Assembly: GCA_016841605.1 (NCBI GenBank)
Contig: JAENYV010000009.1
Location: forward strand, 18,718 to 82,717
Origin: Dethiobacter alkaliphilus
Lineage (GTDB): Bacteria; Bacillota; Dethiobacteria; DTU022; UBA8154
Direction of reading: 5' to 3'
Length of the DNA: 64,000 nucleotides
Below are positions 13,322-25,414 of this stretch, one piece after another; within the stretch, counting starts at the first letter, position 1; every line of letters begins with the position of its first letter. A program made the position numbers and the translations under genes. The notes below the pieces were generated by a model. That model did not search any database. It worked only from the letters and a program-made list of their open reading frames with translations, and was not told the DNA's origin.

Positions 13322-13465
13322 TTAGCTATTATGGATATGTTCTTTTTATCGGTCCGGCTGCCAACATTTCATCAACATCTTTGTCGGTCATGGAATAACG
13401 CAGAAGAAACTCCTCATCGGAAACTTTAGGGGCGATACCTATTTGTTTGCGAATCTCGCTTACCT
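13322..13465 (-). pseudogene. 3'-terminal remnant (48 codons) of a paralogous 5S-like carboxyltransferase gene
   Basis: Translates VSEIRKQIGIAPKVSDEEFLLRYSMTDKDVDEMLAAGPIKRTYP*, aligning with the C-terminus of the 10609..11979 product (…VKEIRKQMGIGDNVSDEEFLLRFSMTNRDVDEMLAANALRSNYA); upstream it breaks into AT-rich non-coding DNA. Confidence 0.7.
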
Positions 13466-13621
13466 ATTAAAAATAATATTTTAAAACTTATAAATATTAT
13501 AATTATGAGAACAATGTATAAACAATATATTTTCTTCACATTTTTTTTAACATTCGTTGTATGTTTTTCACTACGGTAATTAATAAATTCATTTTCCCAT
13601 TGTGTATTACTTACTCAACAA

Positions 13622-13665
13622 TAGAAAAAGATCCAAATCCTTAAAAACGGATTTGGATCTTTTTC
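13622..13665 (-). terminator. Rho-independent terminator (bidirectional hairpin) downstream of the HD-domain gene
   Basis: aaagatccaaatcc-ttaaaaac-ggatttggatcttt stem-loop with T-runs on both strands. Confidence 0.6.
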
Positions 13666-13694
13666 TTAAATTAAAGCCGTTAAAACCTCGTGCT

Positions 13695-14270: not shown

Positions 14271-14454
14271 AAGTTCTCTTCCTCCTCCTTTTTCTCTCAA
14301 TACAATTATAATCTTACAAATATTAATGCGATTTAGCAAGTTTTATTTTTTCTTTACCCGTTTAGGTAAATTGATCGAAAAAAAACCATCCCTTTTTTAC
14401 AGGGATGATCTTTAATTCTCTTCCGCATTTTAGAACAAAATCTAATTTTTCACT

Positions 14455-16011
14455 TTAAATCATACGAAGTTTAAATCTTTGAACTTTTCCACTCGCAGTA
14501 CGCGGCAAATCGTTCATAAATTTGAACCATTTCGGGCATTTGTAATGAGCGGTTTTACTGCGTACAAAGTCCTTTAACTCTTGTTCAAGTTGAAGAGACG
14601 GCTCACAACCTTTATTAAGTACTACAAAGGCTAGAGGCTTCTCTAAATTTGATGAATCAGGTGCCCCAATAACTGCACAATCCAACACTGCATGATGTTC
14701 CAGTAGTATTCCTTCGATTTCTAAAGGAGAAACCCAAATACCACCTGATTTGAGCATATCATCGGCACGACCTGCATACCAATAAAAACCCTCATCATCC
14801 ATATAGAACTTGTCACCGGTATTAAACCACTCACCCAAAATATTTTGCTTTGATTTTTCATGGTTGTTCCAGTAGTAGGGTGTGGTACCATCGTTTTTTA
14901 CCCAGAGGGTGCCAATCTCTCCTAACGGAACTTCCTTATTGTCTTCATCAAGGAGTTTTCCCTCGAAACCTGGGAGAAGAAGACCACTACTTCCGGGCTT
15001 TACCTTCCCCGGCAAATTGGAAATGTAGATAACACCCGTATCAGTTGAACCGACACCATTAATAATATCCATACCGAATTTTTCCTTCCAGCGGTCAAAA
15101 ATTGCTTTGGGAAGGGCTTCCCCCGCAGAGATGCACAGGCGCAAAGAGGAAAAGTCAAATTCCTTTTCACTGCTTTCCAGTAGGCTAAGTATACCCGCGT
15201 AGGAAGTGGGGATACTGAAAAAAATTGTCGGTTTATACTTAGTAATAATCTCAACCAGTTTTTCCGGCTTCGGCATCTCCGATTCCAGAATTACCGCTGC
15301 ATTGCATAAAAAGGTCGTTTCGATTGAATTTTCCCTGCCATAAGAGAAGTACATCTTGGAGGCGGAAAAAAGAATATCGTCATCCCGGACCTGGAGCACC
15401 TCTCTGCAATAAGGGGGCAAATAAAAGAGCAGGTCGTGATGGAGATGGACAACCCCCTTGGGTGTACCGGTAGTACCGGAACTGTACATCCAGAAACACA
15501 TGTCATCCTTTGAAGTAAGGACGACTTCCAGGGAATCTGCTGCACCCTCGATCAGTTCCTCAAAGCTCAACTGTCCCGATTCGGGCTTACCAAGGACAAT
15601 AAAATACTTCAGGTACCTCAGATCTTCTTTTACCTCTTTTATTTTTTCTGCTATCTCTTGTGTGGTAACAAGAACCTTAGCACGGCTGTCGTTTAAATAA
15701 AAACGGTAATCTGACGGCAACGCCATCGTACTTACCGGTACTGGAACCGCCCCAATTCTCATCGCACCAAAATATACGTACAAGAATTCAGGACAATCAG
15801 GGAGAGAGAACATAACACGGTTTTCCTGCTCTACACCAAGTTCGTGCAAAACATTGCCAACGCGGTTAGCATAACTAATTAACTCCGCATAAGTAATTTT
15901 CTTTTCCTTATAGTAGACTGCTACTTTTTCCCCTCTGCCTTCCTCAATATGTCGATCCAGCAAAAAAGCTCCCAAGTTAAACTCCTGTGTAATTTCAGGC
16001 ACTCTTATCAT
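14455..16011 (-). CDS. AMP-dependent CoA ligase (aryl/acyl-CoA synthetase family)
   Basis: 518 aa; YSSGTTGTPKGV AMP-binding motif; SD ggaggag. Confidence 0.85.
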   Translation of the reverse strand: MIRVPEITQEFNLGAFLLDRHIEEGRGEKVAVYYKEKKITYAELISYANRVGNVLHELGVEQENRVMFSLPDCPEFLYVYFGAMRIGAVPVPVSTMALPSDYRFYLNDSRAKVLVTTQEIAEKIKEVKEDLRYLKYFIVLGKPESGQLSFEELIEGAADSLEVVLTSKDDMCFWMYSSGTTGTPKGVVHLHHDLLFYLPPYCREVLQVRDDDILFSASKMYFSYGRENSIETTFLCNAAVILESEMPKPEKLVEIITKYKPTIFFSIPTSYAGILSLLESSEKEFDFSSLRLCISAGEALPKAIFDRWKEKFGMDIINGVGSTDTGVIYISNLPGKVKPGSSGLLLPGFEGKLLDEDNKEVPLGEIGTLWVKNDGTTPYYWNNHEKSKQNILGEWFNTGDKFYMDDEGFYWYAGRADDMLKSGGIWVSPLEIEGILLEHHAVLDCAVIGAPDSSNLEKPLAFVVLNKGCEPSLQLEQELKDFVRSKTAHYKCPKWFKFMNDLPRTASGKVQRFKLRMI

Positions 16012-16029
16012 AACGTTTCTCCTCCTAAC

Positions 16030-17343
16030 TTAAAATTTTGCATAGTTCGGCAAAAACAATGCTATCTTTGGGAATAGAATCACTAATAGCGACGTAATTA
16101 TGAGAGAAAGTATGAAGGGATAGATGCCTTTAAAGATATGCTCCAGGGGTATCTGCGGCGCTATACCCTTAACTACATAAACATTACTGCCTACAGGTGG
16201 TGTTATTACGCCTAACTGTGCAACCAGCACGATAACTACTCCAAACCAGATAGGGTCCAAACCGAGGTGGAGGATAACCGGGTAGAGGACGGGGACAAGA
16301 AGAGTAATAAGGGCCATAGAATCAATGAAACATCCGCCTAATATAAATATTATGACGATAATTACAGATATAGTAGTTGCCGAAAAGGGAAGTGATTCAA
16401 CCCAATCTGCGATAATAAACGGAATGGTTGTTACAGCCATAAATTTGCCGAAAATAGTAGCTCCGGTAATAAGGCAGATAATCATAGCGGCCGTCCGCAA
16501 ACCATCTTTGATAAAATAAGCGAACCTGGGCCATGTTATCTGGCGATGCACCAATCCTATTATTATCGTCGCAAATGCCCCAATACCGGCCCCTTCAACC
16601 GGACTAAACCACCCAAGGAACATTCCCCCAATGACCAGAAGGAAAATAATAACAGCATCAGATATGCCAAGCAATGATTTTAGTTTTTGCCTCCAGCTTC
16701 TGCGTTCGCCCGGCGGTCCCATAATGGGGTTAAAACGACAAATAAGATGAACTGTGAGGGCAAACAGCAGGGCTAAGATCAAGCCCGGGAAAATCCCTGC
16801 CACAAAAAGTTTTCCGATAGACTGTTCTGTAAGAAAGCCATAGACAATAAAAACGGTACTGGGAGGTATAAGAATACCGAGGGTGCCGCCTGAAGCAACA
16901 ACTCCTGCAGCCAGAGTATCATGATAATTATATTTCTTCATTTCAGGAAGCGCTATTCTACCCATTGTAGCTGCCGTAGCATTTGTAGAACCGCAAATTG
17001 CAGCAAAACCTGAACACCCTATAATAGTAGCAATACCCAAACCACCCCTTAGATCACCAACTACTTTGTAGGCACTATCATAAAGCCTTTCACCAATACC
17101 GGCGATAAAAGCAAAAGAGCCCATCAGTACAAACATCGTAATAGCACAAAGGGAATAATTATAAAACTGCCCCAAAAATTCCCGCGCCAACATGGCTGTT
17201 CCCGCCGACCACGATGTTATATAACAAAACCCTACCAAACCCACAAAGGCCATGGCAAAAGCTATGTGCATCCTCAGAAAAAAGAGAACAAGAAGCAGAA
17301 CTATCCCCGCAATACCGACTTCAATTGGACTCATTTTTTGCAC
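16030..17343 (-). CDS. dctM: TRAP transporter large permease (DctM family)
   Basis: 437 aa, polytopic membrane protein with DctM-type N-terminus. Confidence 0.8.
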   Translation of the reverse strand: MQKMSPIEVGIAGIVLLLVLFFLRMHIAFAMAFVGLVGFCYITSWSAGTAMLAREFLGQFYNYSLCAITMFVLMGSFAFIAGIGERLYDSAYKVVGDLRGGLGIATIIGCSGFAAICGSTNATAATMGRIALPEMKKYNYHDTLAAGVVASGGTLGILIPPSTVFIVYGFLTEQSIGKLFVAGIFPGLILALLFALTVHLICRFNPIMGPPGERRSWRQKLKSLLGISDAVIIFLLVIGGMFLGWFSPVEGAGIGAFATIIIGLVHRQITWPRFAYFIKDGLRTAAMIICLITGATIFGKFMAVTTIPFIIADWVESLPFSATTISVIIVIIFILGGCFIDSMALITLLVPVLYPVILHLGLDPIWFGVVIVLVAQLGVITPPVGSNVYVVKGIAPQIPLEHIFKGIYPFILSLIITSLLVILFPKIALFLPNYAKF

Positions 17344-17821
17344 CTCTTCCTGTTGCGAATAAGGTAATAATTTCGTTCAAAAAGAAAAGTAATGCGGCAG
17401 CAGAACCAAAAGCAATAGCAAAAGCAAAAGGATAAAAGGGAATAAACGCCCCGGAACTTATCTCCCCCGCTTCTTTCAAAGAAATTCCATAAAAATAGCT
17501 CTTATAGCTAAGAATAGCAAAGAAAATCAATTCTAATACCAACATAGTCAAATTTATCCACTTTTGAGCGGAACCGGGCAAACGATCGACTACAAACTCA
17601 ACTGCAATATGTCGTTTATCCAACAGATCAATGGCAATTGCAAAGGATATTGCTACTATTTGAGCAAAACCTATCATTTCTGTCGCACCGCGGAGAGGCG
17701 CAAGAAACAACTTGGCACCGACTACATTTATAAATGTAACGGCTATCATGACCACAACTCCTGCAACGCCTATCCATTCAATCGTTTTAATGCATTTGTC
17801 AGAAAATACCTTAAATTTCAT
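17321..17821 (-). CDS. dctQ: TRAP transporter small permease (DctQ family)
   Basis: 166 aa, four hydrophobic segments; overlaps the dctM start. Confidence 0.7.
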   Translation of the reverse strand: MKFKVFSDKCIKTIEWIGVAGVVVMIAVTFINVVGAKLFLAPLRGATEMIGFAQIVAISFAIAIDLLDKRHIAVEFVVDRLPGSAQKWINLTMLVLELIFFAILSYKSYFYGISLKEAGEISSGAFIPFYPFAFAIAFGSAAALLFFLNEIITLFATGRGAKNESN

Positions 17822-17942
17822 TATACAGCATCCTTTTTAAAAAAATTCCGGAATATTAAAACTGCTATGTTTAATTCTTAATACACTCCGGGCCATCACT
17901 CTATCAGTGACGGCCCTTTGAATGCATTTAATAATCTCTATA

Positions 17943-19106
17943 TTAATACTCCTGGTAAACCTCAGGCGGACCCGTCTCAGATTTTATCCCGAGCTCAATC
18001 TGTTTCTTAAGCCAGTATTCGGTTCTTTCTTTAATAAAGTCCAACCATTCATTTATTTCATTTTCAGAATAACCATTAGACACCATGTTAGCCTTATAAT
18101 CATCAATAACCTTATCCGCTTTCTCCTTCCATATCGGAAGTTCTGCATCCGGTACTACATATATTTCAAAATTTTCATCAATAGCATATTGTTTTCCCAT
18201 AATTCCTATGTCATTCCACATTTTGGCAAGGTCATCTACGAACTCTTCTTCCACGTATTTATTAATTATCTCCTGAATATCTGCGGGCAGCTTGTTCCAG
18301 GTGTCTTTGTTCATTGTAATATAAAATGTGTAAACATTGCTGGTTTGCCATACCTCTGTTATATTATTAACAACCTCTCCATATTTGTAGGTCTGCATCG
18401 TTTCATAGGGAATTAACAATCCGTCAATTATGTTTTTTGCTAAGAAATCGTAAGCTTCAGGCATGGGTAATGCACGGGCTACTCCTCCCATTGATTCGAG
18501 AAGCTGCGCTATATATCCTGTACCCCTTAGAGTAAGACCTTTCAGATCATCAGGCTTTTTAATCGGAGTATTAATAGTTATAATATTATTAAGGCTTGAA
18601 GTAGTAAGTGTGAGGATATGGGTATCATCGAATTCCTGGGGCTTAAATTTATTATAAAAATCGGCAGCAACGTGATTTGCTACCCATCCATTTGGAAAAC
18701 CAATAGGAAGATCAAGAACCTGCGTTACTGGAAAACGCCCAAAGGTATAAGCTAAATTTGAATATCCAATATCTGCAATTCCTTCAACAACACCATCGTA
18801 CATTTTATCCGCAGCAAGTAACATACTTCCCGGAAAGAACTCAAATTTAACTCTTCCATCGGTAAGCCCCTCAATATCTTCAGCAAACTTTACAAGTGCT
18901 TTGCTCTGATAAGCTTCCCCAGGATTATAAGTAGCCATTCTAAGAGTTGTGACACTATCGGGAGCAGGCTTTGTATCCTCAGTATTCTCCGTATTACTTT
19001 GGCCGCCAACATCCCCCGCCGGTTGAGAGGCACATCCAGCGAACGCCACCATCACCAATAAACTCAGAATTAACAAACTTAAAACAAAAATTCTTTTAGC
19101 CATCAT
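17943..19106 (-). CDS. dctP: TRAP transporter solute-binding lipoprotein (DctP family)
   Basis: 387 aa; signal peptide + lipobox AFAGC; completes the P-Q-M gene order. Confidence 0.75.
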   Translation of the reverse strand: MMAKRIFVLSLLILSLLVMVAFAGCASQPAGDVGGQSNTENTEDTKPAPDSVTTLRMATYNPGEAYQSKALVKFAEDIEGLTDGRVKFEFFPGSMLLAADKMYDGVVEGIADIGYSNLAYTFGRFPVTQVLDLPIGFPNGWVANHVAADFYNKFKPQEFDDTHILTLTTSSLNNIITINTPIKKPDDLKGLTLRGTGYIAQLLESMGGVARALPMPEAYDFLAKNIIDGLLIPYETMQTYKYGEVVNNITEVWQTSNVYTFYITMNKDTWNKLPADIQEIINKYVEEEFVDDLAKMWNDIGIMGKQYAIDENFEIYVVPDAELPIWKEKADKVIDDYKANMVSNGYSENEINEWLDFIKERTEYWLKKQIELGIKSETGPPEVYQEY

Positions 19107-19540
19107 GTTAACCCTCCTTTTATTTCAAAATAAACCCCACTTCTTTACCCATCTTGATAACAACAGCTTTGGTTAAACCTCGAGGATTTTCATAATCGAA
19201 ATCTTTGCACCCCCTCTGAGAGAACTTGTCAAATACAGCGATATGACCAGGCTTGTAAAGCAAAATTATAGGTAAAATTTAATTCTAATATTAATCAATC
19301 GGGCGAGAACGGAATAAAATAATATTTCTAAGGTTCTAACAATTTAAAATAGAGTATCAGGGAAATACAAACTAAACAGCAAGAGGCTCCACAAAACTCC
19401 TCGTAATACAGAAAAATTTTATTTGTTGAACTATATTCAATATATCACCTATTATTTAACTTGACAATTATTCATTTTTATCTTTATGTTTTAAATAATT
19501 TGTTTTAGACTAAAATATCTCATATTTTTTAAATTTAATT

Positions 19541-19700
19541 ATTAATTCCTAAATATTACGCTATTATTCGCTAGTTGACTAATAAACAAAATATGCTTTA
19601 ATTGAACTTTATTCAGATTAAATATCGTTAAATCCTTTTCCCATATTTGCAACTTGACGAAGAAACAAAAGGCATTAACTGAACTTGGCTAATAATTTAT
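19541..19700 (+). repeat. Paralogous copy (~80% identity over ~150 bp) of the tetR promoter/operator block at 24590..24760, not followed by a gene
   Basis: Shared strings attacgctat, gttgacta, ...cccatatttgcaacttgacgaa(g/t)aaacaaaaggcat...; contains TGAACTTTATTCAG. Confidence 0.6.
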
Positions 19701-19710
19701 TTTTACTATT

Positions 19711-19753
19711 CTCCAGCCCTCCTAATCTCTTCATAGTAGTAGGAGGGCTGGAG
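19711..19753. other. Perfect 13-bp inverted repeat with a 17-nt loop, no T-tract
   Basis: ctccagccctcct-N17-aggagggctggag, just downstream of the reductase-like operon. Confidence 0.5.
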
Positions 19754-19854
19754 AAATCAGCTTCAGCAACAGCTTTATGTTCCAACTTTTGGTTCTTTTA
19801 CATCTCCGCACGAATGGATCGCTTCGCAGCTTGCTTCTGATGATTTTAGCGGTA

Positions 19855-20700
19855 TCAGGCGCTGTTTCGAAGCAAGAACGCATCCGCAAATAGAGCAGCG
19901 CCTAAAGCTACAGTTAACGCAGGATCCCATTCAGACTTAGGAGCCAACCTGCTTATCTTCAATATGCTTTCCAATGAATTTATTATTCCTTGATTTTTTG
20001 CCAGTCCTCCAATGATGACAAGATCTTTTTTCACCCCTGCTCTGTCTGCCAAGGTGCTGATCCTCTTGGCCATAGCATGGTGGTAACCTGCGATTACTTC
20101 TTCGAGCGGTTCTTTGCTTCTAATTAAATCCAGAGCCTCGGATTGAGCATAGATAGCGCAAAAGTCACTTAATTGTGCGGACTTATCAGATCGAAGGGCA
20201 ATGTTTCCTATCTCAGTCACTTCTTTATTCACCAAATCGGCAAAAGTTTCTATCGAACGTCCAATGCCCGCAGCACATTTATCATTCCAAAGGAAAGCTG
20301 TTACTCTGCTCTTTTCAGTAACGTGAATTACTTTGCAGCTTTGACCTCCGACATCAAGCACCGTACGCACGGATGGCCCCCAAATGTGGACCGCCCCTGC
20401 GGCTCCACACGCAATTTCAGATATGGTTTTATGGGCAAAGGGAACCTGCTTCTTTCCGCAACCGGTCCCGACGATGCATTGAATATTTTCCAACGTTAAA
20501 TCGGTTTTATCCAAAGCAGCATTTATCGCTCTTATAGCTGATTCTTCAGGTATGCGTGTTTTAACTTGAGAATAGATATATGGTTGTCCGTCAACCAGTA
20601 TTATAACTTTGGAATTCACTGCTCCGATATCTACTCCAGCTACCACCGTTTTGGCCTTTGTCCAATCTATACTCAGGTTTATGGAAACGTGTTCACTCAT
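19855..20700 (-). CDS. BadF/BadG/BcrA/BcrD-family ATPase (HgdC-type activator / BCR ATP-binding subunit) 2
   Basis: N-terminal ...VAGVDIGAVNSKVII... acetate/sugar-kinase fold; start at the ATG overlapping the upstream stop (ATGAGTGA), SD ggaggtggg. Confidence 0.75.
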   Translation of the reverse strand: MSEHVSINLSIDWTKAKTVVAGVDIGAVNSKVIILVDGQPYIYSQVKTRIPEESAIRAINAALDKTDLTLENIQCIVGTGCGKKQVPFAHKTISEIACGAAGAVHIWGPSVRTVLDVGGQSCKVIHVTEKSRVTAFLWNDKCAAGIGRSIETFADLVNKEVTEIGNIALRSDKSAQLSDFCAIYAQSEALDLIRSKEPLEEVIAGYHHAMAKRISTLADRAGVKKDLVIIGGLAKNQGIINSLESILKISRLAPKSEWDPALTVALGAALFADAFLLRNSA

Positions 20701-21493
20701 TTTTCCCACCTCCACAGGTTATCACCGCACCTATTGCACCTACATACTCCGGCAGGTTCAATACTTTGACATCTTCTTTGAGCAAAACCGGAAGGTGATT
20801 CATGAGTGCTTTAGATTTGGCTAATCCTCCGGCGACAACGATCTCTTGTGTTAGGGTTATGGTTGTGCACATTGCTGCAACACGTTGAACGATGAATCTC
20901 AGGATTGCATCTGCCACATCAGTGATTTCCACTCCCTGACACAGCAGATCAATAGCTTCTGATTCAGCGGATAGGGCACAAGTAATGGCAACAGACACAT
21001 TCTTGGTGGATTTAAGTGCCAATTCGGACAGTTCCTCTTCGCTTACTCCGAAAGCTTTGACCATGGTACTGTAAAAAATACCCATGCCGTCAGCGCATTT
21101 ATCATTTTGAATAACGTCGAGAAGCCCCCCATTGCTGTCATAGTGGACAGCTTTAGTTATATTCCCACCAATGTCGATCACTGTTCTTGAATTCTTATTC
21201 AGGAAGAAAGCACCCCTGGCATCCGCAACATGTTCGGGCACACTTCCGACCAGAGCCAATGTCGGTATATTAATCGTCTCTCCAAAAATGCCGGTACATA
21301 CAATCCCGGTTAATTGGCTCAGCGGGAGTCCGGTATTGTATAAAGCATTATTCAACGCCTTTTCAGCCGCATCTGCCGGATTAAATCCTGTGGGTACTAC
21401 AGCATATCCGAGGATTTCTTCTTCCCGCATGAGTACGGCCTTGGTATTAACATGGCCTGCATCTATTCCGGCTAGAAGTTTTCTGTTATTCAT
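20693..21493 (-). CDS. BadF/BadG/BcrA/BcrD-family ATPase 1
   Basis: MNNRKLLAGIDAGHVNTKAVLM...; second HgdC-like ATPase. Confidence 0.75.
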   Translation of the reverse strand: MNNRKLLAGIDAGHVNTKAVLMREEEILGYAVVPTGFNPADAAEKALNNALYNTGLPLSQLTGIVCTGIFGETINIPTLALVGSVPEHVADARGAFFLNKNSRTVIDIGGNITKAVHYDSNGGLLDVIQNDKCADGMGIFYSTMVKAFGVSEEELSELALKSTKNVSVAITCALSAESEAIDLLCQGVEITDVADAILRFIVQRVAAMCTTITLTQEIVVAGGLAKSKALMNHLPVLLKEDVKVLNLPEYVGAIGAVITCGGGKNE

Positions 21494-22650
21494 GACGCCA
21501 CCCCCGTTATTATATTTACAAAGGTTTCCAACTGCGTCTGAAATTGAGTTATAGGCAGGGTAGTATCAAGCTCAAGCTCGAGCGAAGGAATTCCCAAATT
21601 GTTCAAGATAGGCTTCAAGCCAACAATATCCATTGGTTGAGGGCTGCAAAATCTCTGATAGAGAAGCACTACTCCATCCGGCTTGAAGTCCTCAATAAAC
21701 TGTTGAATGAACCTGAACCTTTTTTTCTCTCCGGTTCCGGGGAAGTTGTCCTTGGCAGGACATGGAATTCTAGCGATGTATGCTTCGGCGATTGTTTGAA
21801 GCTTATCAGTTCTATCTTCAGGTACCTCGAACCAGAAGTAACGGGTTGCCGTACAGGTATCAACGAAAACCAGGCTTGCGCTGTTGTCTAGTTTTTCCAT
21901 TAAATCGAAAATTCTGAGATCGTCACACGCACCTCCTGATACCATCAACCTCACTCCCGGCAGATTTTTGCGCGGCACGGATTGCAATTTTTGAATCAGT
22001 TCCTCAAGTAGTTGATTGAATTCCTTCTTTTCCATTAACTGGGAAGCAAGAGTAACTATAGCAACTTCCGCTCCGGTGATCGGAGATTCTTTATATCTGA
22101 GGAACTCCCAGAGTTGTATAAGAAGCCTTCTGGTGTGATTATAAATTTTGATGGCCCTTTCAATGTCCTCATCTGTGATAGATTTATGGACAATATCCTC
22201 CAGGTATTGTTTGAATTCTTTAAAAGATTCCACTATAAAACCGGCGGCCGGCTTGGTGTGGATGATATGAGGATACGATATGAGGAAGCTTTTTTCCTTG
22301 AATCCTGCAAATCTGACCCATGTATTAAAAGCTTCACCCATGTGTATGCAGCTGCTGCCGGTGACAATCAGGTCAAAAAAATCATAATACGTCAGGCCCC
22401 GGTAAGCGCAATCATGCGAAAAGGAGCAATATGTTTCATGTATATAACTTCTTGTCATTGCTTGGGAATCGTGGGAACTAAGAACTCTTACCGGTACAAT
22501 CCCGGCAGCATATAAAATTTCCTCCGGAACATGGGTGCACATATATCCCGCTACTAAATGTCCTTTACTTTGAAGTGATTGGGCATATTCCTGCGTATGG
22601 TCTGTTATGTGCTGGAAATATTCGATTATGGAGTTGGAATCCTTCATCAT
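21490..22650 (-). CDS. 2-hydroxyacyl-CoA dehydratase / benzoyl-CoA reductase family subunit (HgdB/BcrB-like)
   Basis: 386 aa; start ATG overlaps the upstream stop (TAATG); operon context with two activator-type ATPases. Confidence 0.6.
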   Translation of the reverse strand: MMKDSNSIIEYFQHITDHTQEYAQSLQSKGHLVAGYMCTHVPEEILYAAGIVPVRVLSSHDSQAMTRSYIHETYCSFSHDCAYRGLTYYDFFDLIVTGSSCIHMGEAFNTWVRFAGFKEKSFLISYPHIIHTKPAAGFIVESFKEFKQYLEDIVHKSITDEDIERAIKIYNHTRRLLIQLWEFLRYKESPITGAEVAIVTLASQLMEKKEFNQLLEELIQKLQSVPRKNLPGVRLMVSGGACDDLRIFDLMEKLDNSASLVFVDTCTATRYFWFEVPEDRTDKLQTIAEAYIARIPCPAKDNFPGTGEKKRFRFIQQFIEDFKPDGVVLLYQRFCSPQPMDIVGLKPILNNLGIPSLELELDTTLPITQFQTQLETFVNIITGVAS

Positions 22651-23969
22651 TAGCAAACACCTCCTTTCTTATGCGCCTCCATTAGCTGCACAAACAACTC
22701 TGTTTTGCGCTTGGCGCCCGGCAAATCCATTTTTCGCACATCTACCTGGTCGCTATCATATTCAACAGTCGGAATTTTGCTTTTAAACATGCGCTGCATC
22801 CCCACGTAACCGTTCCTAAAATCGGTTTCGCAACTACGTGAAGGCGCCAACAAAAGCCCGTCTGCATTATATTCCGTAATCATGGCCTGAGCCATGGATT
22901 CCAGCGCCCACCAGGACCGTACTCCTTGCCAGGTAGGCCAACCCAGCACTATTTTAACCAATTCGGTTATCGCTTTTCTTCTTGTAGATAAATCCAGTTC
23001 ATCTACCCAGGTTGGATCAATGGGTTCCCATGTCCATTTTCCGTCTACAATACCCTTAAAATTGCCGGCCGTACCAAAGGTATAGACCGAGGCTACGATC
23101 TCGGCTCCCGCGTCTCGAAGGATTCTGGACATTTCCGGATGTCCGTACGTATGTGCCAATCCAAAATAAACTATTCTGTGGCGTTGATCCGGAGAGACAC
23201 TTTGTCCGGTCTCAACCATGTGTCTCACTTCTTTAAGCAGTCCTTCGTATAAGCGCACAGTTTCATCGGTTGTCCTGTCCACCACAGCCGGCGGGAATAA
23301 AGCTATCAGCCGGCGCTCGTCCAACGGAGCGGGGTTATGCATATTGAGTGCACAGATATTACCCCAGAGAACCAAAACCTTGATTTCGTTTCTGACTGCC
23401 TTAATAAACAACTCATCCGAGAATTCCCTGCCTGTGACTCTCTGCATCCAATGAATGCCCTCTTCTATCTGGTTGCTCACATAGTTTACGATTTTAGGAT
23501 TTTTTTCTGCATTACCCCCTCCGATCATATCTATTGCATAAATGGGTATACCGCCCATAAGCCTGGAGATTTCCTGGTACCATTTTGAATGTTGACTGCA
23601 CAAGTGCGTAGTCCACATAAAGTCCGGTTTGGGATATCCGTCAGTGATTGTTCCATCGGTAATACCTATTTTATCGCGGACTACCTCCCCAACGAACAGC
23701 TTCAAGTAACTACAGGAGTGAAAACCCAAACCCGCGGTTTCAGCAGCAATAATGTCGTCACGAGCTTCTTTAGGAAATGTCCCTGCTTTCGATGCGGCGT
23801 GCGGCTCACCGCCGATTACAAATACATCCTCACCCAACCCTTTAAGGGGAGCTAAAGGACTCCATGTTGAACCCATGCAACGAAGGCCTCCATAACCCTC
23901 CACATAATTTCTATAGCATGTACTCTGATAATCCTTAAATGCACCCCAACTTTTTATGTTATATGCCAT
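22650..23969 (-). CDS. 2-hydroxyacyl-CoA dehydratase / benzoyl-CoA reductase family subunit (HgdA/BcrC-like)
   Basis: 439 aa; first gene of the 4-gene operon; SD aggagga. Confidence 0.6.
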   Translation of the reverse strand: MAYNIKSWGAFKDYQSTCYRNYVEGYGGLRCMGSTWSPLAPLKGLGEDVFVIGGEPHAASKAGTFPKEARDDIIAAETAGLGFHSCSYLKLFVGEVVRDKIGITDGTITDGYPKPDFMWTTHLCSQHSKWYQEISRLMGGIPIYAIDMIGGGNAEKNPKIVNYVSNQIEEGIHWMQRVTGREFSDELFIKAVRNEIKVLVLWGNICALNMHNPAPLDERRLIALFPPAVVDRTTDETVRLYEGLLKEVRHMVETGQSVSPDQRHRIVYFGLAHTYGHPEMSRILRDAGAEIVASVYTFGTAGNFKGIVDGKWTWEPIDPTWVDELDLSTRRKAITELVKIVLGWPTWQGVRSWWALESMAQAMITEYNADGLLLAPSRSCETDFRNGYVGMQRMFKSKIPTVEYDSDQVDVRKMDLPGAKRKTELFVQLMEAHKKGGVC

Positions 23970-24095
23970 TAAAACTCCTCCTATACTGAATAATACTCAG
24001 AACATAATCAGCAACCGAATAATAAGCTTCTCCGACAAACACACCTCCTTTCCAACCAGCTGACAACTTGAATATATAAATAAAAACTACATTCA

Positions 24096-24192
24096 AAGTT
24101 GTGCCGGCATTAATTTACATTAACTACACAACTAACATGCCCGATTAATGAAAACAACTTTTAAACTACATTCATTGAACTACATTCAGTTT
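24096..24192. promoter_or_regulatory. Three direct repeats AACTACATTCA (at 24096, 24165, 24181) upstream of the reductase-like operon; the last forms CTGAA-N5-TTCAG
   Basis: Seen directly; lies in the divergent tetR intergenic region. Confidence 0.45.
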
Positions 24193-24727
24193 ATATAATA
24201 TAATTTAACTTGTCAAACAACAAATAATAGCGTTAGATGTAATAATATATAGAAATATTAATTAATAAAGCTTTATTTACCTATATTTAATGTTTTTAGC
24301 CAATAAATATAAGTATTATTATTTATATATGAATATAATATGATGAATGATATTCATTTTTTTCAAATAGTCATGATAAATGATTCCTTTTTTTAATAAT
24401 GTTATTCCTAACATAATCGACAAAAAGAGATTCCCAAGGCAGTTAAAAAGCAGGGGAATTATCGAATAAAAATATCTGGAGCTTTAAAAGCTCCAGATAT
24501 TTTTTGATCTCATGCAACCATCCCCATAACAATAGACACAGATATTAAATTTATCCATTTTTTAAGTGATTTAATTAAAGTCAAAATAACTTACTATTCT
24601 TAAATATTACTATTAATTCTTCAGCATTACGCTATGAAACGTTGGTTGACTATTAAGCAAAATATACTTAAACTGGACTTCATTCAAATTAAATACCGTT
24701 AAAACCCATTTCCCTACTATTTGCAAC

Positions 24728-24768
24728 TTGACGAATAAACAAAAGGCATATAAACTGAACATAGTTCA
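24728..24768 (+). promoter_or_regulatory. Putative sigma-A promoter (TTGACG ... TATAAA) of tetR with overlapping palindromic operator TGAAC-ATA-GTTCA
   Basis: -35/-10-like hexamers ~50 nt upstream of the tetR ATG; the 13-bp palindrome overlaps the -10/+1 region. Confidence 0.45.
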
Positions 24769-24811
24769 TAGATTAAATACTCTACCACAACGGGACAGAT
24801 CGGAGGTTAAT

Positions 24812-25414
24812 ATGAATAAAGATAATAAGTTATTAACGCAACAAGAAGAGAAAAAGATTAAAATTTTTGAAGCTGCAAGACGTATTGTTAGTGAAAAGGG
24901 TTACGAAAAAACCACAATGTTACAAATCGCCAAAGCTGCTGATGTAGCTACCGGGACAATATATGAATACTTTGAGAATAAGGAAGACCTCTTTTTAACT
25001 ATTGCTGCAGAACAATACGGGTTGTTTGACGAGGAACTTAAAATTCATTTTTCCGGAATAAAAAGTGCTTTTGAAAAAATACGAAAGTACATTTGGTTTT
25101 ATTTTTATTTTTTTCAAAAAGACCCCTTATACTCCGAAATATGGCTTCTCGTTATAAGATTAAACAAAAGCCTTGCTCAGAGTACGGCTTATCCCTGGAT
25201 CCAACAATCCGGCAAAGAAATTATTGATTTGTTAAAAGCAGGGCAGGAAGAAGGTATGATCAGGAAAGATATAGACTTATACGTAATGAGACATCTGCTC
25301 CTGGGTTCCTTAGAACATGCGATGACCCGTTGGCTTCTTAAGGGAAAAACTTATGACATGCTGTCTTATAGCGAGAAAATCTCAGATCTTATTATTGATG
25401 CTATCAAAAAATGA
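24812..25414 (+). CDS. TetR/AcrR-family transcriptional regulator
   Basis: N-terminal HTH ...KIFEAARRIVSEKGYEKTTMLQIAKAADVATGTIYEYFENKEDLF; start at the ATG with SD ggaggt (track ORF begins 28 codons earlier). Confidence 0.85.
   Translation: MNKDNKLLTQQEEKKIKIFEAARRIVSEKGYEKTTMLQIAKAADVATGTIYEYFENKEDLFLTIAAEQYGLFDEELKIHFSGIKSAFEKIRKYIWFYFYFFQKDPLYSEIWLLVIRLNKSLAQSTAYPWIQQSGKEIIDLLKAGQEEGMIRKDIDLYVMRHLLLGSLEHAMTRWLLKGKTYDMLSYSEKISDLIIDAIKK

What the first reader, a model, noticed from the sequence alone, without database searches (positions are those of the whole stretch)
19855..25414. Four-subunit class-I benzoyl-CoA-reductase / 2-hydroxyacyl-CoA-dehydratase-like operon with two HgdC-type ATPases, divergently paired with a TetR regulator
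Seen in sequence:
- Two tandem BadF/BadG/BcrA/BcrD-family ATPase genes, 266 and 281 aa.
- They are preceded by two HgdA/HgdB/BcrB/BcrC-family genes of 439 and 386 aa.
- All four are tightly coupled on the minus strand; start codons overlap stops (ATGAGTGA, TAATG).
- A TetR gene is divergent across a 758-bp AT-rich intergenic region, and a TRAP transporter lies immediately downstream.

Established knowledge:
- 2-hydroxyacyl-CoA dehydratases normally use one homodimeric activator ATPase.
- ATP-dependent class-I aryl-CoA reductases (BcrABCD/BzdNOPQ, tetrahydronaphthoyl-CoA reductase) use two distinct ATPase subunits plus two large subunits.

Inference: with two distinct ATPases, the architecture favours an ATP-driven ring or enoyl reductase. 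Together with the neighbouring CoA ligases, thiolase and carboxylase it fits an anaerobic aromatic or alicyclic acid pathway. The substrate is unknown.
Basis: partly seen in the sequence, partly recalled or inferred. Interest (0 to 1): 0.55.

Follow-up and report, generated by a model that had tools for sequence, protein, structure and literature searches.

The report
Uncharacterised ATP-driven aromatic-ring reductase operon
A strictly anaerobic Dethiobacteria bacterium carries a four-gene, ATP-powered iron-sulfur enzyme related to benzoyl-CoA reductase; it belongs to a tightly conserved, never-studied branch whose altered substrate pocket suggests it reduces a hydroxylated or aminated aromatic acid rather than benzoate itself.

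Summary
Four translationally coupled minus-strand genes sit at 19855-23969. Two are HGD-D subunits (O, N) and two are distinct BcrAD/BadFG ATPases (P, Q). A divergent TetR gene and a downstream TRAP transporter plus aryl-CoA ligase complete the locus.

It is a Bzd-type class I aryl-CoA reductase, not a 2-hydroxyacyl-CoA dehydratase.
- The best solved relatives are BzdO and BzdN (E 1e-60 and 1e-57).
- An AlphaFold model of O matches BzdO at TM 0.91, against 0.78-0.80 for HadB.
- The catalytic Cys triad, Glu and His, six double-cubane cysteines in N, and a cysteine pair in each ATPase are all kept.

It is not a BzdNOPQ orthologue.
- Identity to BzdO and BzdN is about 30%, and NCBIfam scores are half the curated cut-offs.
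- At 50% identity the whole family collapses to one representative among 1.84 billion; the next cluster is 35% identical.
- Residues lining the benzoyl ring are replaced by invariant Thr300, Thr382, Asp383 and Arg385.

All relatives found come from uncultured anaerobes: Syntrophorhabdaceae, Dethiobacter and Dehalococcoidales.

A 13-nt palindrome sits just after the −10 box of three promoters and defines a TetR regulon of nine genes.

The substrate is unresolved. A hydroxy- or amino-substituted benzoyl-CoA is my best inference.

The parts
22650..23969 (-). O: catalytic large subunit (BzdO-like, 439 aa); predicted active-site [4Fe-4S]-OH2 and aryl-CoA binding site
   Evidence: - PF06050. NCBIfam bzdO scores 207 bits against a cut-off of 449.
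- PDB BzdO 8s02_A, E 2.6e-60, 30.6% identity.
- AF2 model pLDDT 89.7, TM 0.91 to 8s02_A.
- Kept: C86, C124, C380, E55, H127, Y88, Y296, W36.
- Changed and family-invariant: T120, A272/H273, T300, T382, D383, R385.
21490..22650 (-). N: second large subunit (BzdN-like, 386 aa from the ATG at 22650); predicted double-cubane [8Fe-9S] electron relay
   Evidence: - PF06050, E 1.3e-69. bzdN scores 207 bits against a cut-off of 454.
- PDB BzdN 8s02_B, E 1.4e-57, 30.5% identity.
- Six Cys shared with BzdN (C40, C77, C103, C268, C299, C337), plus R57, R272 and R296.
- Two further Cys (C83, C244) are invariant in the family.
20693..21493 (-). P: ATPase subunit 1 (266 aa) of the heterodimeric electron activator
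   Evidence: - PF01869; TIGR00241 at 166 bits, above its cut-off of 125.
- Phosphate-1, phosphate-2 and adenosine motifs and Cys133/Cys172 are conserved in 21 of 21 relatives.
19855..20700 (-). Q: ATPase subunit 2 (281 aa from the ATG at 20700; BzdQ-like)
   Evidence: - PF01869. bzdQ scores 232 bits against a cut-off of 380.
- Cys147/Cys186 (286-aa numbering) and the ATP motifs are conserved in 16 of 16 relatives.
- The start overlaps the P stop as ATGAGTGA.
24809..25414 (+). TetR-family repressor (200 aa) with a YsiA/FadR-like acyl-CoA-type ligand domain
   Evidence: - PF00440 + PF08359. Bacillus-type FadR model scores 110 bits, below its cut-off of 200.
- Ribosome-binding site GGAGG lies upstream of the ATG at 24809.
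- A 39-44%-identical TetR lies beside ONPQ in most related loci.
24162..24216 (-). Promoter of ONPQ (TTGACA-17-TAAACT) with two tandem operator palindromes at 24176-24188 and 24162-24174
   Evidence: The first operator begins at the last base of the -10 hexamer.
24728..24768 (+). tetR promoter (TTGACG-17-TAAACT) with an operator at 24756-24768 (predicted autoregulation)
   Evidence: The geometry is the same as at the O promoter.
19427..19467 (-). Promoter of dctPQM-ligase (TTGTCA-17-TATATT, with extended TG) and an operator at 19427-19439
   Evidence: The geometry is the same as at the other two promoters.
19541..19690 (+). ~150-nt copy of the tetR upstream region (about 80% identical to 24611-24765), carrying a further operator-like site at 19603-19615
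19709..19755 (-). Perfect 16-nt-arm hairpin about 100 nt after the Q stop; likely terminator of ONPQ
   Evidence: I2.
17943..19106 (-). TRAP solute-binding protein DctP (first gene of the co-regulated uptake/activation unit)
   Evidence: PF03480, E 3.7e-42.
16030..17821 (-). TRAP membrane components DctQ (17321-17821) and DctM (16030-17343)
   Evidence: PF04290 and PF06808.
14455..16011 (-). Aromatic acid-CoA ligase (benzoate-CoA ligase family), followed by an intrinsic terminator at about 14378-14407
   Evidence: - TIGR02262 scores 536 bits, above its cut-off of 375.
- Best PDB hit is anthranilate-CoA ligase 4wv3 at 447 bits, then benzoate-CoA ligases at 389 and 354 bits.
- The terminator is read directly.

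Best explanation
The locus encodes a Bzd-type, ATP-dependent (class I) aryl-CoA reductase together with its regulator and substrate-supply genes.

Proposed mechanism, by analogy with BzdNOPQ/MbdONPQ:
1. Reduced ferredoxin loads the [4Fe-4S] cluster that bridges the P-Q ATPase heterodimer through two cysteines from each subunit.
2. ATP hydrolysis lowers the cluster's potential and drives electrons to the double-cubane [8Fe-9S] cluster of N.
3. Electrons pass on to the three-Cys [4Fe-4S]-OH2 cluster of O.
4. In O the CoA thioester of an aromatic acid is reduced in one-electron/proton steps, using the Fe-bound water, Glu55 and His127. Tyr88 and Tyr296 hydrogen-bond the thioester oxygen.

Substrate supply: a TRAP transporter (DctPQM) and a benzoate-CoA-ligase-family enzyme.

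Regulation: the TetR protein represses three promoters (ONPQ, tetR and dctPQM-ligase). It binds the palindrome TGAAYRTAGTTCA immediately downstream of each -10 box, and is probably released by the aryl-CoA.

Shown here: gene content, homology, fold, conservation of cofactor ligands and catalytic residues, conserved synteny, operator enrichment and geometry.

Inferred: all activities, the electron donor, the effector and the substrate.

Substrate (inference). The enzyme probably acts on a polar-substituted benzoyl-CoA rather than on benzoyl-CoA. The hydrophobic ring pocket of BzdO (Leu302, Leu383, Gly382, Gln274-Pro275) is replaced by invariant Thr300, Asp383, Thr382, Arg385 and Ala272-His273.

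My split of the probability:
- Hydroxy- or methoxy-benzoyl-CoA (3- and/or 4-hydroxy): about 0.45.
- 2- or 4-aminobenzoyl-CoA: about 0.12.
- Benzoyl-CoA itself: about 0.2.
- Other: the remainder.
For: Architecture and homology:
- Gene calls and family matches.
- BzdO and BzdN are the best solved relatives.
- Foldseek gives TM 0.91 and rmsd 2.3 A to 8s02_A, against HadB 0.78-0.80, MbdO 0.81 and DCCP 0.69.

Cofactor and catalytic residues:
- They map onto those defined in the BzdNO structure paper (PMC11971306): C86, C124, C380, E55, H127, Y88, Y296.
- All are invariant in 118 family members, except C124, which is Tyr in one.
- N keeps six Cys and three Arg.
- P and Q keep the Cys pairs and ATP motifs.
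- P and Q are fused into one protein in L025 and L030, as expected for an obligate heterodimer.

Reductase versus dehydratase signature: His at position 131 and Glu at position 381 are as in the Bzd-type clades. HAD-like representatives have Val/Leu and Lys there.

A distinct orthologous group:
- One full-length representative at 50% identity in 1.84e9 proteins, and the next at 35%.
- The BzdO cluster representative is 32% identical.
- A long stem inside the Bzd-type half of an NJ tree.

Pocket changes are invariant in the family, while neighbouring clades keep C-E-G-x and Leu/Ile302.

Regulon:
- 5 operator hits in 64 kb against 0.29 expected, all in the two spacers flanking ONPQ.
- Identical -10/operator geometry at three promoters.
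- In 21 related loci, 34 of 62 sites with at most 2 mismatches fall in the 400 bp upstream of O, which is 2.3% of the sequence searched.

Aromatic-acid context:
- The ligase passes the benzoate-CoA ligase family cut-off.
- AMP-ligases and carboxylate transporters dominate the neighbourhoods of 22 loci; BenE sits next to ONPQ in Dethiobacter L001.

Phenolic context:
- The window's own Hpe/Xcc-like kinase-carboxylase-ligase-thiolase cluster (PMC9618137, PMC12624787) should end in a 4-hydroxy(-3-methoxy)benzoyl-CoA.
- Pps/Hpe-type kinases lie in one operon-like row with ONPQ in L029 and L013.
- An HCR-like Mo enzyme lies nearby in 8 loci.
- BamB/BamC-like genes lie next to ONPQ in 3 loci. This argues that ONPQ is not simply the cell's benzoyl-CoA reductase.
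Against: - No member of the family has been assayed, and all 24 genome hits are MAGs. Every activity is therefore inferred.
- Pocket positions were assigned by sequence alignment only. HMMER and MAFFT differ by one residue around Gln274, and no ligand-bound model was built.
- Gene neighbourhoods are heterogeneous. They include UbiD, an acetylene-hydratase-like Mo/W enzyme, PaaK-type and FadD-type ligases, an OYE-like enzyme, PrpD, amidohydrolases and IorA. No single peripheral pathway points to one substrate.
- The XDH-type neighbour is not an HcrA equivalog (440 bits against a cut-off of 995), and its FAD subunit matches only the C-terminal half of the HcrB model.
- The window's ligase is closest to an anthranilate-CoA ligase in the PDB, which pulls towards an amino substrate.
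- The benzoate-type ligase, BenE, and a report of a Dethiobacter MAG in a benzoate enrichment (PMC8115662) keep plain benzoyl-CoA alive.
- No ferredoxin gene and no dienoyl-CoA hydratase, dehydrogenase or hydrolase genes are in the window.
- The operator and promoters are consensus predictions.
Confidence: 0.65

Rival explanations
1. It is simply this organism's benzoyl-CoA reductase. On this view it is a divergent but functionally equivalent BzdNOPQ that dearomatises unsubstituted benzoyl-CoA to cyclohexa-1,5-diene-1-carbonyl-CoA.
For: - Same four-subunit architecture and catalytic residues as BzdNOPQ.
- The adjacent ligase is in the benzoate-CoA ligase family.
- A BenE benzoate-transporter gene lies directly upstream of ONPQ in Dethiobacter L001.
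- A Dethiobacter MAG from a benzoate-degrading enrichment was reported to hold all benzoate-pathway genes (PMC8115662).
- The ONPQ+TetR module sits beside many different peripheral genes, as a central-pathway enzyme would.
Against: - Only about 30% identity to BzdO and BzdN, and half the equivalog cut-offs.
- Ring-contacting Leu302, Leu383 and Gly382 are replaced by invariant Thr, Asp and Thr, with an added Arg385. The nearest Bzd-type clades keep the hydrophobic set.
- In three Syntrophorhabdaceae loci the module lies beside BamB/BamC-like class II genes.
- Syntrophorhabdus is described as using the ATP-independent enzyme for benzoyl-CoA (PMC5946492).
- An ATP-consuming BCR is energetically unattractive for syntrophs (PMC5736913).
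Confidence: 0.2
2. It is a 2-aminobenzoyl-CoA (anthranoyl-CoA) reductase that reduces or reductively deaminates the product of tryptophan, indole or anthranilate breakdown.
For: - The co-regulated ligase's best solved relative is an anthranilate-CoA ligase (4wv3, 447 bits, against 389 and 354 for benzoate-CoA ligases).
- An invariant Asp383 in the ring pocket would suit an amino group.
- IorA-like and aminotransferase genes flank ONPQ in L025, L002, L003 and L020.
- Amidohydrolase and creatininase-family genes occur in three loci each.
- Anaerobic anthranilate conversion to benzoyl-CoA by an unassigned '2-aminobenzoyl-CoA reductase' is described for Azoarcus evansii (PMC4539516).
Against: - The ligase evidence is a modest score difference and applies to this window only. 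Ligases next to ONPQ elsewhere belong to other subfamilies.
- The window's own neighbouring pathway is phenolic, not nitrogenous.
- No ring-position assignment for Asp383 was possible.
Confidence: 0.12
3. It is a 2-hydroxyacyl-CoA dehydratase of amino-acid fermentation (Hgd/Had/Fld/Lcd type) with a duplicated activator.
For: - The Pfam families are shared by both enzyme types.
- Both ATPases also match the dehydratase activators HadI and HgdC strongly.
- Several database entries name relatives '2-hydroxyacyl-CoA dehydratase'.
Against: - HadB and HadC matches are much weaker than BzdO and BzdN matches.
- His127 is present; the BzdNO paper notes Ala at that position in HadB. Glu381 replaces the Lys of HAD-like sequences.
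- N has the six-Cys double-cubane set.
- Two different, equally conserved ATPases are present, fused in some genomes.
- No 2-hydroxyacid dehydrogenase or CoA-transferase gene is in the operon.
- The context is aromatic acid uptake and activation.
Confidence: 0.03
4. It is an ATP-dependent reductase for a substrate that is not a benzoyl-CoA derivative. Candidates are an alicyclic or dienoyl-CoA, a bicyclic aryl-CoA as with tetrahydronaphthoyl-CoA reductase, or an N-heteroaromatic acyl-CoA.
For: - Bzd-type enzymes of strict anaerobes are known to act on 5,6,7,8-tetrahydro-2-naphthoyl-CoA (PMC12016498).
- XDH-family hydroxylases, amidohydrolases and an OYE-like enzyme occur near ONPQ in some loci.
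- The family is very divergent.
Against: - No thn-like beta-oxidation cluster lies beside it.
- The ligase in this window is a monocyclic benzoate-type enzyme.
- Trp36, Tyr88 and Tyr296 of the benzoyl-binding frame are retained.
Confidence: 0.08

Closest known systems
[quoted passage not shown] CIB (structure of BzdNO: PDB 8S02; PMC11971306)
   Same: - Same four subunit types.
- Best sequence and fold match for O and N (E 1e-60 and 1e-57; TM 0.91).
- Same three-Cys catalytic cluster with Glu/His proton relay, six-Cys double-cubane site with flanking Arg residues, and two Cys per ATPase.
- Tyr88 and Tyr296 for the thioester oxygen are kept.
   Different: - About 30% identity, and NCBIfam equivalog cut-offs are missed by half.
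- Ring pocket: Leu302 to Thr, Leu383 to Asp, Gly382 to Thr, Gln124 to Thr, Gln274-Pro275 lost, Arg385 added.
- His330 of BzdN becomes Gln, and N has two extra invariant Cys.
- The host is a strict anaerobe (Dethiobacteria), not a denitrifier.
- The regulator is a TetR.
- No ferredoxin, KGOR or dch-had-oah genes lie alongside.
MbdONQP / MBR-type 3-methylbenzoyl-CoA reductase (Thauera chlorobenzoica; PDB 9G87, 9GAI)
   Same: - A class I reductase dedicated to, or tolerant of, substituted benzoyl-CoA.
- Heterodimeric ATPase module; Q matches MbdQ at E 2e-42.
   Different: - Much more distant in the large subunits: O vs MbdO E 5.6e-5 and TM 0.81; N vs MbdN E 7e-27.
- MBR types form permanent heterotetramers (PMC11971306).
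[quoted passage not shown]
   Same: - Precedent for a bzdNOPQ-like, ATP-dependent aryl-CoA reductase in obligate anaerobes that also own ATP-independent reductases.
- It is used for a substrate the other enzymes cannot reduce (PMC12016498).
   Different: - The thn genes sit in a 22-gene beta-oxidation operon with a ferredoxin; this locus has neither.
- Sequences could not be compared directly, but no cluster outside the family exceeds 35% identity to O.
(R)-2-Hydroxyisocaproyl-CoA dehydratase HadBC with activator HadI (PDB 3O3M, 4EHT)
   Same: - Same superfamily and fold.
- An ATP-driven 'archerase' electron injection.
- A three-Cys catalytic cluster.
   Different: - HAD uses one homodimeric activator and recycles a single electron (PMC11971306).
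- HadB lacks the His.
- Weaker similarity: 61 and 111 bits; TM 0.78-0.80.
Hpe / Acv / Xcc hydroxyphenylethanone pathway (Rhodococcus GD02, Sphingobium SYK-6, Aromatoleum aromaticum EbN1) and the MarK kinase: closest known system for the neighbouring genes at 1-14339
   Same: - A two-component PpsAB/HpeHI-type kinase.
- A UPF0261 MarK-like kinase (E 1e-39; ATP-site D14/T15/K16 and phenol-site G195/H219 kept).
- A three-part biotin carboxylase, a CoA ligase and a C-C cleaving enzyme.
   Different: - A thiolase rather than a hydrolase, so the product stays a CoA ester, as proposed for EbN1.
- An HD-domain protein in place of the NagD-type phosphatase.
- MarK's ketone- and stacking-site His348 and His304 are not kept.
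- A PucR/GAF regulator.
- Not under the TetR operator.

Membership tests
Class I (ATP-dependent) benzoyl-CoA reductase, BZD type | Four subunit types: two HGD-D large subunits plus two different BcrAD/BadFG ATPases, encoded together | tested here: met
   The order O-N-P-Q is conserved in 22 of 24 loci.
Class I (ATP-dependent) benzoyl-CoA reductase, BZD type | Equivalog-level similarity to BzdN, BzdO and BzdQ (NCBIfam curated cut-offs) | tested here: not met
   Scores against cut-offs are 207/449 (O), 207/454 (N) and 232/380 (Q). P has no specific hit. Identity is 30.6% (O) and 30.5% (N).
Class I (ATP-dependent) benzoyl-CoA reductase, BZD type | Catalytic [4Fe-4S] held by three Cys with an open site for water, next to Glu65 and His131 (PMC11971306) | tested here: met
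   C86, C124, C380, E55 and H127 by alignment. All are invariant in 118 sequences except C124, which is Tyr in one.
Class I (ATP-dependent) benzoyl-CoA reductase, BZD type | Double-cubane [8Fe-9S] site in the N subunit (six Cys, Arg-rich surroundings) | tested here: met
   Six Cys are shared with BzdN, and R57, R272 and R296 are kept; His330 becomes Gln. Ligand identity is inferred from conservation, because the paper's text does not list the six residues.
Class I (ATP-dependent) benzoyl-CoA reductase, BZD type | Hydrophobic benzoyl pocket (Trp46, Tyr97, Leu302, Leu383) and thioester H-bond donors Tyr97, Tyr298, Gln274 | tested here: not met
   Trp, Tyr and Tyr are kept. Leu302 becomes Thr, Leu383 becomes Asp and Gln274 is lost. 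These changes are invariant in the family.
Class I (ATP-dependent) benzoyl-CoA reductase, BZD type | Two Cys per ATPase subunit for the bridging [4Fe-4S], plus intact ATP-binding motifs in both | tested here: met
   P has C133/C172 and Q has C147/C186, each spaced 39 residues. The motifs are conserved.
Class I (ATP-dependent) benzoyl-CoA reductase, BZD type | Stoichiometric ATP hydrolysis coupled to two-electron reduction of benzoyl-CoA to the 1,5-dienoyl-CoA | not testable with these tools
   This needs enzyme assays.
Class I (ATP-dependent) benzoyl-CoA reductase, BZD type | Clustered ferredoxin and dienoyl-CoA pathway genes (bzdM, dch/had/oah-type) | tested here: not met
   None was found in the ORFs scanned at 1-28.5 kb. 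On the syntenic JGI contig the flank on the TetR side is ribosomal and housekeeping genes. The rest of the genome is unknown.
2-Hydroxyacyl-CoA dehydratase (Hgd/Had/Fld/Lcd) | Closest similarity to characterised dehydratase alpha and beta subunits | tested here: not met
   HadB 61 bits against BzdO 207; HadC 111 against BzdN 199. TM 0.78-0.80 against 0.91.
2-Hydroxyacyl-CoA dehydratase (Hgd/Had/Fld/Lcd) | A single homodimeric activator; non-His residue at the BzdO-His131 position | tested here: not met
   Two distinct conserved ATPases are present. His127 is invariant, while HAD-like representatives have Val/Leu there.
Double-cubane cluster protein (DCCP) reductases | A single type of catalytic subunit reaching the NF040772 threshold, with its own homodimeric reductase | tested here: not met
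   N scores 151 bits and O 31 bits against a cut-off of 350. TM to DCCP is 0.66-0.69.
TetR-family acyl-CoA-responsive repressor (YsiA/FadR type) | TetR_N HTH plus TetR_C_4 ligand domain | tested here: met
   PF00440 E 6.6e-17; PF08359 E 2.6e-10.
TetR-family acyl-CoA-responsive repressor (YsiA/FadR type) | Palindromic operator overlapping the promoters of the regulated genes and of its own gene | tested here: met
   5 sites against 0.29 expected. The geometry is identical at 3 promoters. Sites are enriched upstream of O in 21 loci. Binding itself was not tested.
TetR-family acyl-CoA-responsive repressor (YsiA/FadR type) | Orthology to Bacillus FadR; acyl-CoA effector | tested here: inconclusive
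   NF053878 scores 110 bits against a cut-off of 200. The effector cannot be tested here.
Hpe/Acv/Xcc hydroxyphenylethanone pathway (neighbouring genes) | Phenol kinase (HpeHI/AcvAB or MarK) + three-part biotin carboxylase + phosphatase + CoA ligase + C-C cleaving enzyme, clustered | tested here: inconclusive
   All component types are present. The MarK match has E 1.1e-39 with the ATP and phenol sites kept.

The most novel reading that the evidence does not exclude
The ONPQ family is the long-missing enzyme that lets obligate anaerobes with tungsten-type (class II) benzoyl-CoA reductases handle hydroxylated benzoyl-CoA esters. Those esters are 3-hydroxybenzoyl-CoA from protocatechuate, catechol or m-cresol, and/or 4-hydroxy(-3-methoxy)benzoyl-CoA from lignin-derived hydroxyphenylethanones.

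In its boldest form it is a mechanistic hybrid of BCR and HAD. The ring hydroxyl, held by Asp383, Thr300 and Thr382, binds at or near the unique Fe. It is then expelled, or the ring reduced, after ATP-driven ketyl formation. That would make it a molybdenum-independent aryl-CoA dehydroxylase/reductase.
Probability: 0.2. Interest if true: 0.75.

Novelty: new variant of a known kind. Interest (0 to 1): 0.55.

Why it matters
Class I benzoyl-CoA reductases are textbook enzymes of facultative anaerobes. Their use by strict anaerobes and syntrophs is considered energetically paradoxical, and it is documented biochemically only for tetrahydronaphthoyl-CoA and for Ferroglobus.

This family is widespread in uncultured Syntrophorhabdaceae, Dethiobacteria and Dehalococcoidales from digesters, peat, soils and the deep subsurface. 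Its catalytic subunit is 75-98% identical across phyla, yet only about 30% identical to any studied enzyme. It comes with its own conserved repressor and operator.

Current annotation pipelines label it either 'benzoyl-CoA reductase subunit B' or '2-hydroxyglutaryl-CoA dehydratase'. Metagenomic surveys that use bcr genes as markers for benzoate dearomatisation may therefore be miscounting it.

Identifying its substrate would fill a gap in the anaerobic degradation of lignin-derived or nitrogenous aromatics. It would also give a natural pocket variant for testing the recently proposed [4Fe-4S]-OH2 Birch-type mechanism.

Tried and rejected
- Exact look-up of the window's O protein found nothing on record. 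A 98%-identical JGI contig with the same synteny was used instead.
The Thauera catechol paper (Ding et al. 2008) is not held, so that pathway is cited from memory and from PMC4585845.
- Cluster-member look-up of the ten nearest non-family representatives gave only generic names.
- I tested whether the XDH-type neighbour is 4-hydroxybenzoyl-CoA reductase. Its best PDB hit is HcrA, but it is well below the equivalog cut-off and its FAD subunit matches only the C-terminal half of the HcrB model. I treat it as HCR-like only.
- I tested whether the Mo-bisPGD neighbour resembles pyrogallol transhydroxylase. It resembles acetylene hydratase instead, and its function is left open.
- Pooled Pfam scanning of 130 neighbouring ORFs, seeking one shared peripheral pathway, gave only ligases and transporters as common themes. 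The first attempt exceeded the residue limit.
- I considered that the Pps-like and carboxylase genes belong to the TetR regulon. I rejected this because no operator occurs there, separate terminators and promoters are present, and the cluster has its own PucR regulator.
- I considered a small gene between O and tetR because of the bidirectional hairpin at 24468-24504. No ORF of 80 aa or more lies there, so it is left as an insulator or terminator.
- Rfam and tRNA scans were not run, as they do not bear on the finding.

Full report
**1. Observation**

ORF listing and Pfam scans confirm four consecutive minus-strand genes.
- O: 22650-23969, 439 aa, PF06050.
- N: 21490-22656, PF06050.
- P: 20693-21493, 266 aa, PF01869.
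- Q: 19855-20715, PF01869.

The junctions read directly from the sequence show translational coupling and good ribosome-binding sites.
- TAATG joins the O stop to the N ATG at 22650, giving N 386 aa.
- ATGA joins N to P.
- ATGAGTGA joins the Q ATG at 20700 (281 aa) to the P stop.

A TetR gene (PF00440 + PF08359) is divergent. Its plausible start is the ATG at 24809, behind GGAGG, giving 200 aa. This matches the gene call on a 98%-identical JGI contig. The AT-rich spacer (27% GC) is therefore 839 bp.

Downstream of Q lie DctP, DctQ and DctM (16030-19106) and a 518-aa ligase (14455-16011). The ligase exceeds the curated threshold of the benzoate-CoA ligase family, TIGR02262 (536 vs 375 bits).

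**2. What kind of enzyme it is**

NCBIfam ranks bzdO, bzdN and bzdQ first for O, N and Q. The scores are about half the equivalog cut-offs: 207/449, 207/454 and 232/380.

Against solved structures, the best relatives are BzdO and BzdN of Aromatoleum (8S02; E 2.6e-60 and 1.4e-57). These are far ahead of HadB/HadC (5.9e-16, 7.4e-31) and MbdO/MbdN.

An AlphaFold2 model of O has pLDDT 89.7 and pTM 0.91. It superposes on BzdO with TM 0.91 and rmsd 2.3 A. The corresponding TM values are 0.78-0.80 for HadB, 0.81 for MbdO and about 0.69 for the double-cubane protein.

Both ATPases match HadI, HgdC and MbdQ.

**3. Catalytic anatomy**

The BzdNO structure paper (PMC11971306) defines the following features:
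- Cys95, Cys128 and Cys380 of the aqua-[4Fe-4S] cluster.
- The acid/base pair Glu65 and His131.
- The thioester H-bond donors Tyr97, Tyr298 and Gln274.
- The ring environment Trp46, Leu302, Leu383 and Tyr97.
- Contacts of Glu381 and Gly382 with the cluster.
- An [8Fe-9S] double cubane in BzdN with six Cys and Arg53, Arg267, Arg290 and His330.

I mapped these through the HMMER alignments.

In O:
- Kept: C86, C124, C380, E55, H127, Y88, Y296, W36, S34, E381.
- Changed: Q124 to T120, Q274 to A272 (next to H273), L302 to T300, G382 to T382, L383 to D383, with R385 two residues on.

In N:
- Six Cys shared with BzdN are kept (C40, C77, C103, C268, C299, C337), along with R57, R272 and R296.
- His330 becomes Gln340.
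- Two further Cys (C83, C244) are invariant in the family.

In 118 family members, all the changed pocket residues are invariant, as are all the kept catalytic residues except C124, which is Tyr in one sequence.

Across 90-odd cluster representatives, the clades nearest BzdO keep C-E-G-x, Leu/Ile302 and Gln-Pro274-275. HAD-like sequences carry Val/Leu at the His131 position and Lys at the Glu381 position. The family therefore has the reductase signature with a remodelled, polar ring pocket.

P and Q each keep the phosphate-1, phosphate-2 and adenosine motifs. Each also keeps a Cys pair 39 residues apart: P C133/C172 and Q C147/C186. This holds in every relative. In two genomes P and Q are fused. 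The second ATPase is therefore not a decaying duplicate.

**4. How isolated the family is**

A word-indexed search found 152 clusters. The 120 best listed are 74-98% identical to O, and nearly all come from metagenomes.

A filter-only HMMER scan of 1.84 billion 50%-identity representatives found a single full-length representative of the family (82%). The next cluster is 35% identical, and the BzdO cluster representative 32%. BzdO itself is 35-58% identical to many of those other clusters.

In an NJ tree the family sits on a long stem, inside the Bzd-type half and far from HAD-like sequences. The tree has no bootstrap, and long-branch caution applies.

**5. Distribution and transfer**

RpoB places the window in Dethiobacteria (Bacillota). 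It is 84% identical to a Dethiobacter MAG and 78% to D. alkaliphilus.

A scan of one genome per species returned 24 loci, all MAGs. They are mostly Syntrophorhabdaceae and 'Deltaproteobacteria', with one Dethiobacter (88%) and Dehalococcoidales.

O is 79-88% identical across these phyla. N, P and Q are more divergent at 54-86%. The pattern implies horizontal spread with unusually strong constraint on the substrate-binding subunit.

**6. Regulation**

The palindrome TGAAYRTAGTTCA occurs five times in the 64-kb window at up to 1 mismatch, against 0.29 expected. All five lie in the two spacers flanking ONPQ.

At three predicted promoters the operator starts at the last base of the -10 hexamer:
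- O promoter: TTGACA-17-TAAACT, with operators at 24176-24188 and 24162-24174.
- tetR promoter: TTGACG-17-TAAACT, with an operator at 24756-24768.
- dctP promoter: TTGTCA-17-TATATT, with an operator at 19427-19439.

In 21 related loci, 34 of 62 sites with at most 2 mismatches lie in the 400 bp upstream of O, which is 2.3% of the sequence searched. Exact copies occur in two Syntrophorhabdaceae loci.

A TetR 39-44% identical to the window's accompanies ONPQ in most loci.

Transcript ends:
- A perfect 16-nt-arm hairpin follows Q at 19709-19755.
- An intrinsic terminator follows the ligase at about 14378-14407.

The inferred regulon is tetR, ONPQ and dctPQM-ligase: nine genes at 14455-25414. The YsiA/FadR-type ligand domain suggests a CoA-thioester effector; this is inference.

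**7. Clues to the substrate**

(a) The pocket is polar (section 3).

(b) Neighbours. Among 130 ORFs within 6 kb of ONPQ in 22 loci, the commonest families are AMP-ligases (12), LIV-type binding proteins (6) and DctP (4). BenE lies beside ONPQ in Dethiobacter. Other neighbours are:
- An XDH-family Mo enzyme in 8 loci. Its best solved relative is 4-hydroxybenzoyl-CoA reductase, but it is not an equivalog.
- BamB/BamC-like genes in 3 loci.
- An acetylene-hydratase-like Mo/W enzyme in 6 loci.
- A UbiD enzyme.
- IorA and aminotransferases.
- Amidohydrolases.

ONPQ plus TetR thus behaves as a portable module serving a hub-like intermediate.

(c) Pps/Hpe-type kinase genes lie in one row with ONPQ, DctP and a ligase in L029 and L013.

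(d) The window's own left flank (1-14339) encodes:
- A two-component PpsAB/HpeHI-type kinase.
- A MarK-like UPF0261 kinase (9MPY, E 1.1e-39; ATP site D14/T15/K16 and phenol site G195/H219 kept).
- Biotin carboxylase, BCCP and carboxyltransferase.
- An HD phosphohydrolase.
- A second acyl-CoA ligase.
- A partial thiolase.
- A PucR/GAF regulator.

The set matches the Hpe/Acv/Xcc logic for 4-hydroxyacetophenone and acetovanillone: phosphorylation, carboxylation, dephosphorylation, CoA ligation and C-C cleavage (PMC9618137; PMC12624787). With a thiolase, the predicted product is 4-hydroxy(-3-methoxy)benzoyl-CoA.

(e) The co-regulated ligase is closest, among solved structures, to an anthranilate-CoA ligase.

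(f) Published pathways provide two hub candidates. Protocatechuate is activated and para-dehydroxylated to 3-hydroxybenzoyl-CoA in nitrate and sulfate reducers (PMC4585845). Anthranilate is converted via 2-aminobenzoyl-CoA by an unassigned reductase (PMC4539516). From my own knowledge of the Thauera work (Laempe 2001; Ding 2008; not retrievable here), 3-hydroxybenzoyl-CoA is reduced there by the ATP-dependent BCR.

Together these favour a hydroxy-substituted, or less likely amino-substituted, benzoyl-CoA. None is decisive, and plain benzoyl-CoA cannot be excluded.

**8. Comparison with the known**

The enzyme works like a BZD-type class I reductase. It fails two membership criteria for BzdNOPQ proper: equivalog similarity and the hydrophobic benzoyl pocket.

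The best functional precedent is tetrahydronaphthoyl-CoA reductase, a bzd-like ATP-dependent enzyme in strict anaerobes for a substrate that other reductases cannot take (PMC12016498).

I found no paper describing this clade.

**9. Verdict**

It is a new variant of a known kind. The clade is uncharacterised, highly conserved and horizontally spread, and consists of ATP-dependent aryl-CoA reductases with a remodelled pocket and a dedicated TetR/operator circuit. Its substrate is not established.

Interest is moderate (0.55). Specialists would not be surprised by the architecture. The clade does offer a directly testable route to an open question: how strict anaerobes dearomatise or dehydroxylate substituted benzoyl-CoA esters.

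Noticed in passing
window 1-14339 (minus strand): 1-1021, 1650-3227, 3501-5768, 5951-7306, 7299-7541, 7561-9243, 9408-10514, 10609-11979, 12035-13294, 13695-14339: A complete-looking, apparently anaerobic version of the Hpe/Acv/Xcc hydroxyphenylethanone (4-hydroxyacetophenone/acetovanillone) pathway. It has both kinase types together: an HpeHI/PpsAB-like two-component kinase and a MarK-like UPF0261 kinase. It also has a three-part biotin carboxylase, an HD phosphohydrolase, an acyl-CoA ligase, a thiolase cut by the window edge, and a PucR/GAF regulator. In MarK terms the ATP and phenol sites are kept, but the ketone-binding His348 and the stacking His304 are not. I know of no description of this pathway in Bacillota/Dethiobacteria.
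   Followed up: partly
window 19541-19690 vs 24611-24765: A ~150-nt stretch of the tetR promoter/leader region is duplicated (about 80% identity) in the spacer between Q and dctP. The copy is on the plus strand, pointing into the 3' end of Q. It carries its own TTGACG box and one operator-like site (19603-19615), but the operator after its -10 box is degenerate. It could be a relic of a rearrangement, since tetR lies downstream of Q in several Syntrophorhabdaceae loci. It could also be an antisense promoter.
   Followed up: partly
window 24468-24504: A perfect 18-nt-arm hairpin flanked by A- and T-runs, which looks like a bidirectional intrinsic terminator. It sits in the middle of the divergent O-tetR spacer, where no gene ends. 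It may insulate ONPQ from read-through coming from pcrB and antisense tetR, or it may mark an unannotated small RNA.
   Followed up: no
L025 12459-14018; L030 12914-14290: In two Syntrophorhabdaceae-type genomes the P and Q ATPase genes are fused into a single 458-519-aa protein. This is a natural covalent heterodimer of the electron activator.
   Followed up: no
window 22650-23969 vs L001-L023: The substrate-binding subunit O is more conserved across phyla (79-88%) than N, P and Q (54-86%). Its identity to Syntrophorhabdaceae relatives (80-86%) matches or exceeds the RpoB identity between this organism and its nearest named Dethiobacter relative (84%). This implies inter-phylum transfer plus very strong purifying selection.
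   Followed up: partly
window 21490-22650 (N), residues C83 and C244: Two cysteines are absent from BzdN but invariant in all 21 family N subunits examined. They are additional to the six predicted double-cubane ligands. Their role is unknown.
   Followed up: no
window 1-25414 vs 25695-64000: The aromatic-catabolic block (GC 0.40-0.45, spacers 0.27-0.31) abuts the ribosomal-protein/rpoBC/EF-Tu superoperon (GC 0.46), directly after pcrB-rpsI-rplM-truA-ecf. The same junction is present on JGI contig Ga0366840_1000358 (L028).
   Followed up: partly
L008, L016, L017, L021, L031, L033 (e.g. L008 5827-8034): A cytoplasmic Mo/W-bisPGD enzyme of about 700 aa recurs next to ONPQ/TetR in six loci. Its best solved relative is acetylene hydratase (2e7z, E 4.7e-103). 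In L021 and L033 it is accompanied by a PaaK-type ligase, and an OYE-like flavoenzyme (L033) or an AFOR (L021) lies close by. Its function is unknown.
   Followed up: partly
annotations: Source databases name members of this one tight family inconsistently: 'benzoyl-CoA reductase subunit B', 'BcrC/BadD/HgdB' and '(R)-2-hydroxyglutaryl-CoA dehydratase subunit alpha'. Marker-gene surveys of bcr genes, such as PMC10936416, may include it.
   Followed up: no
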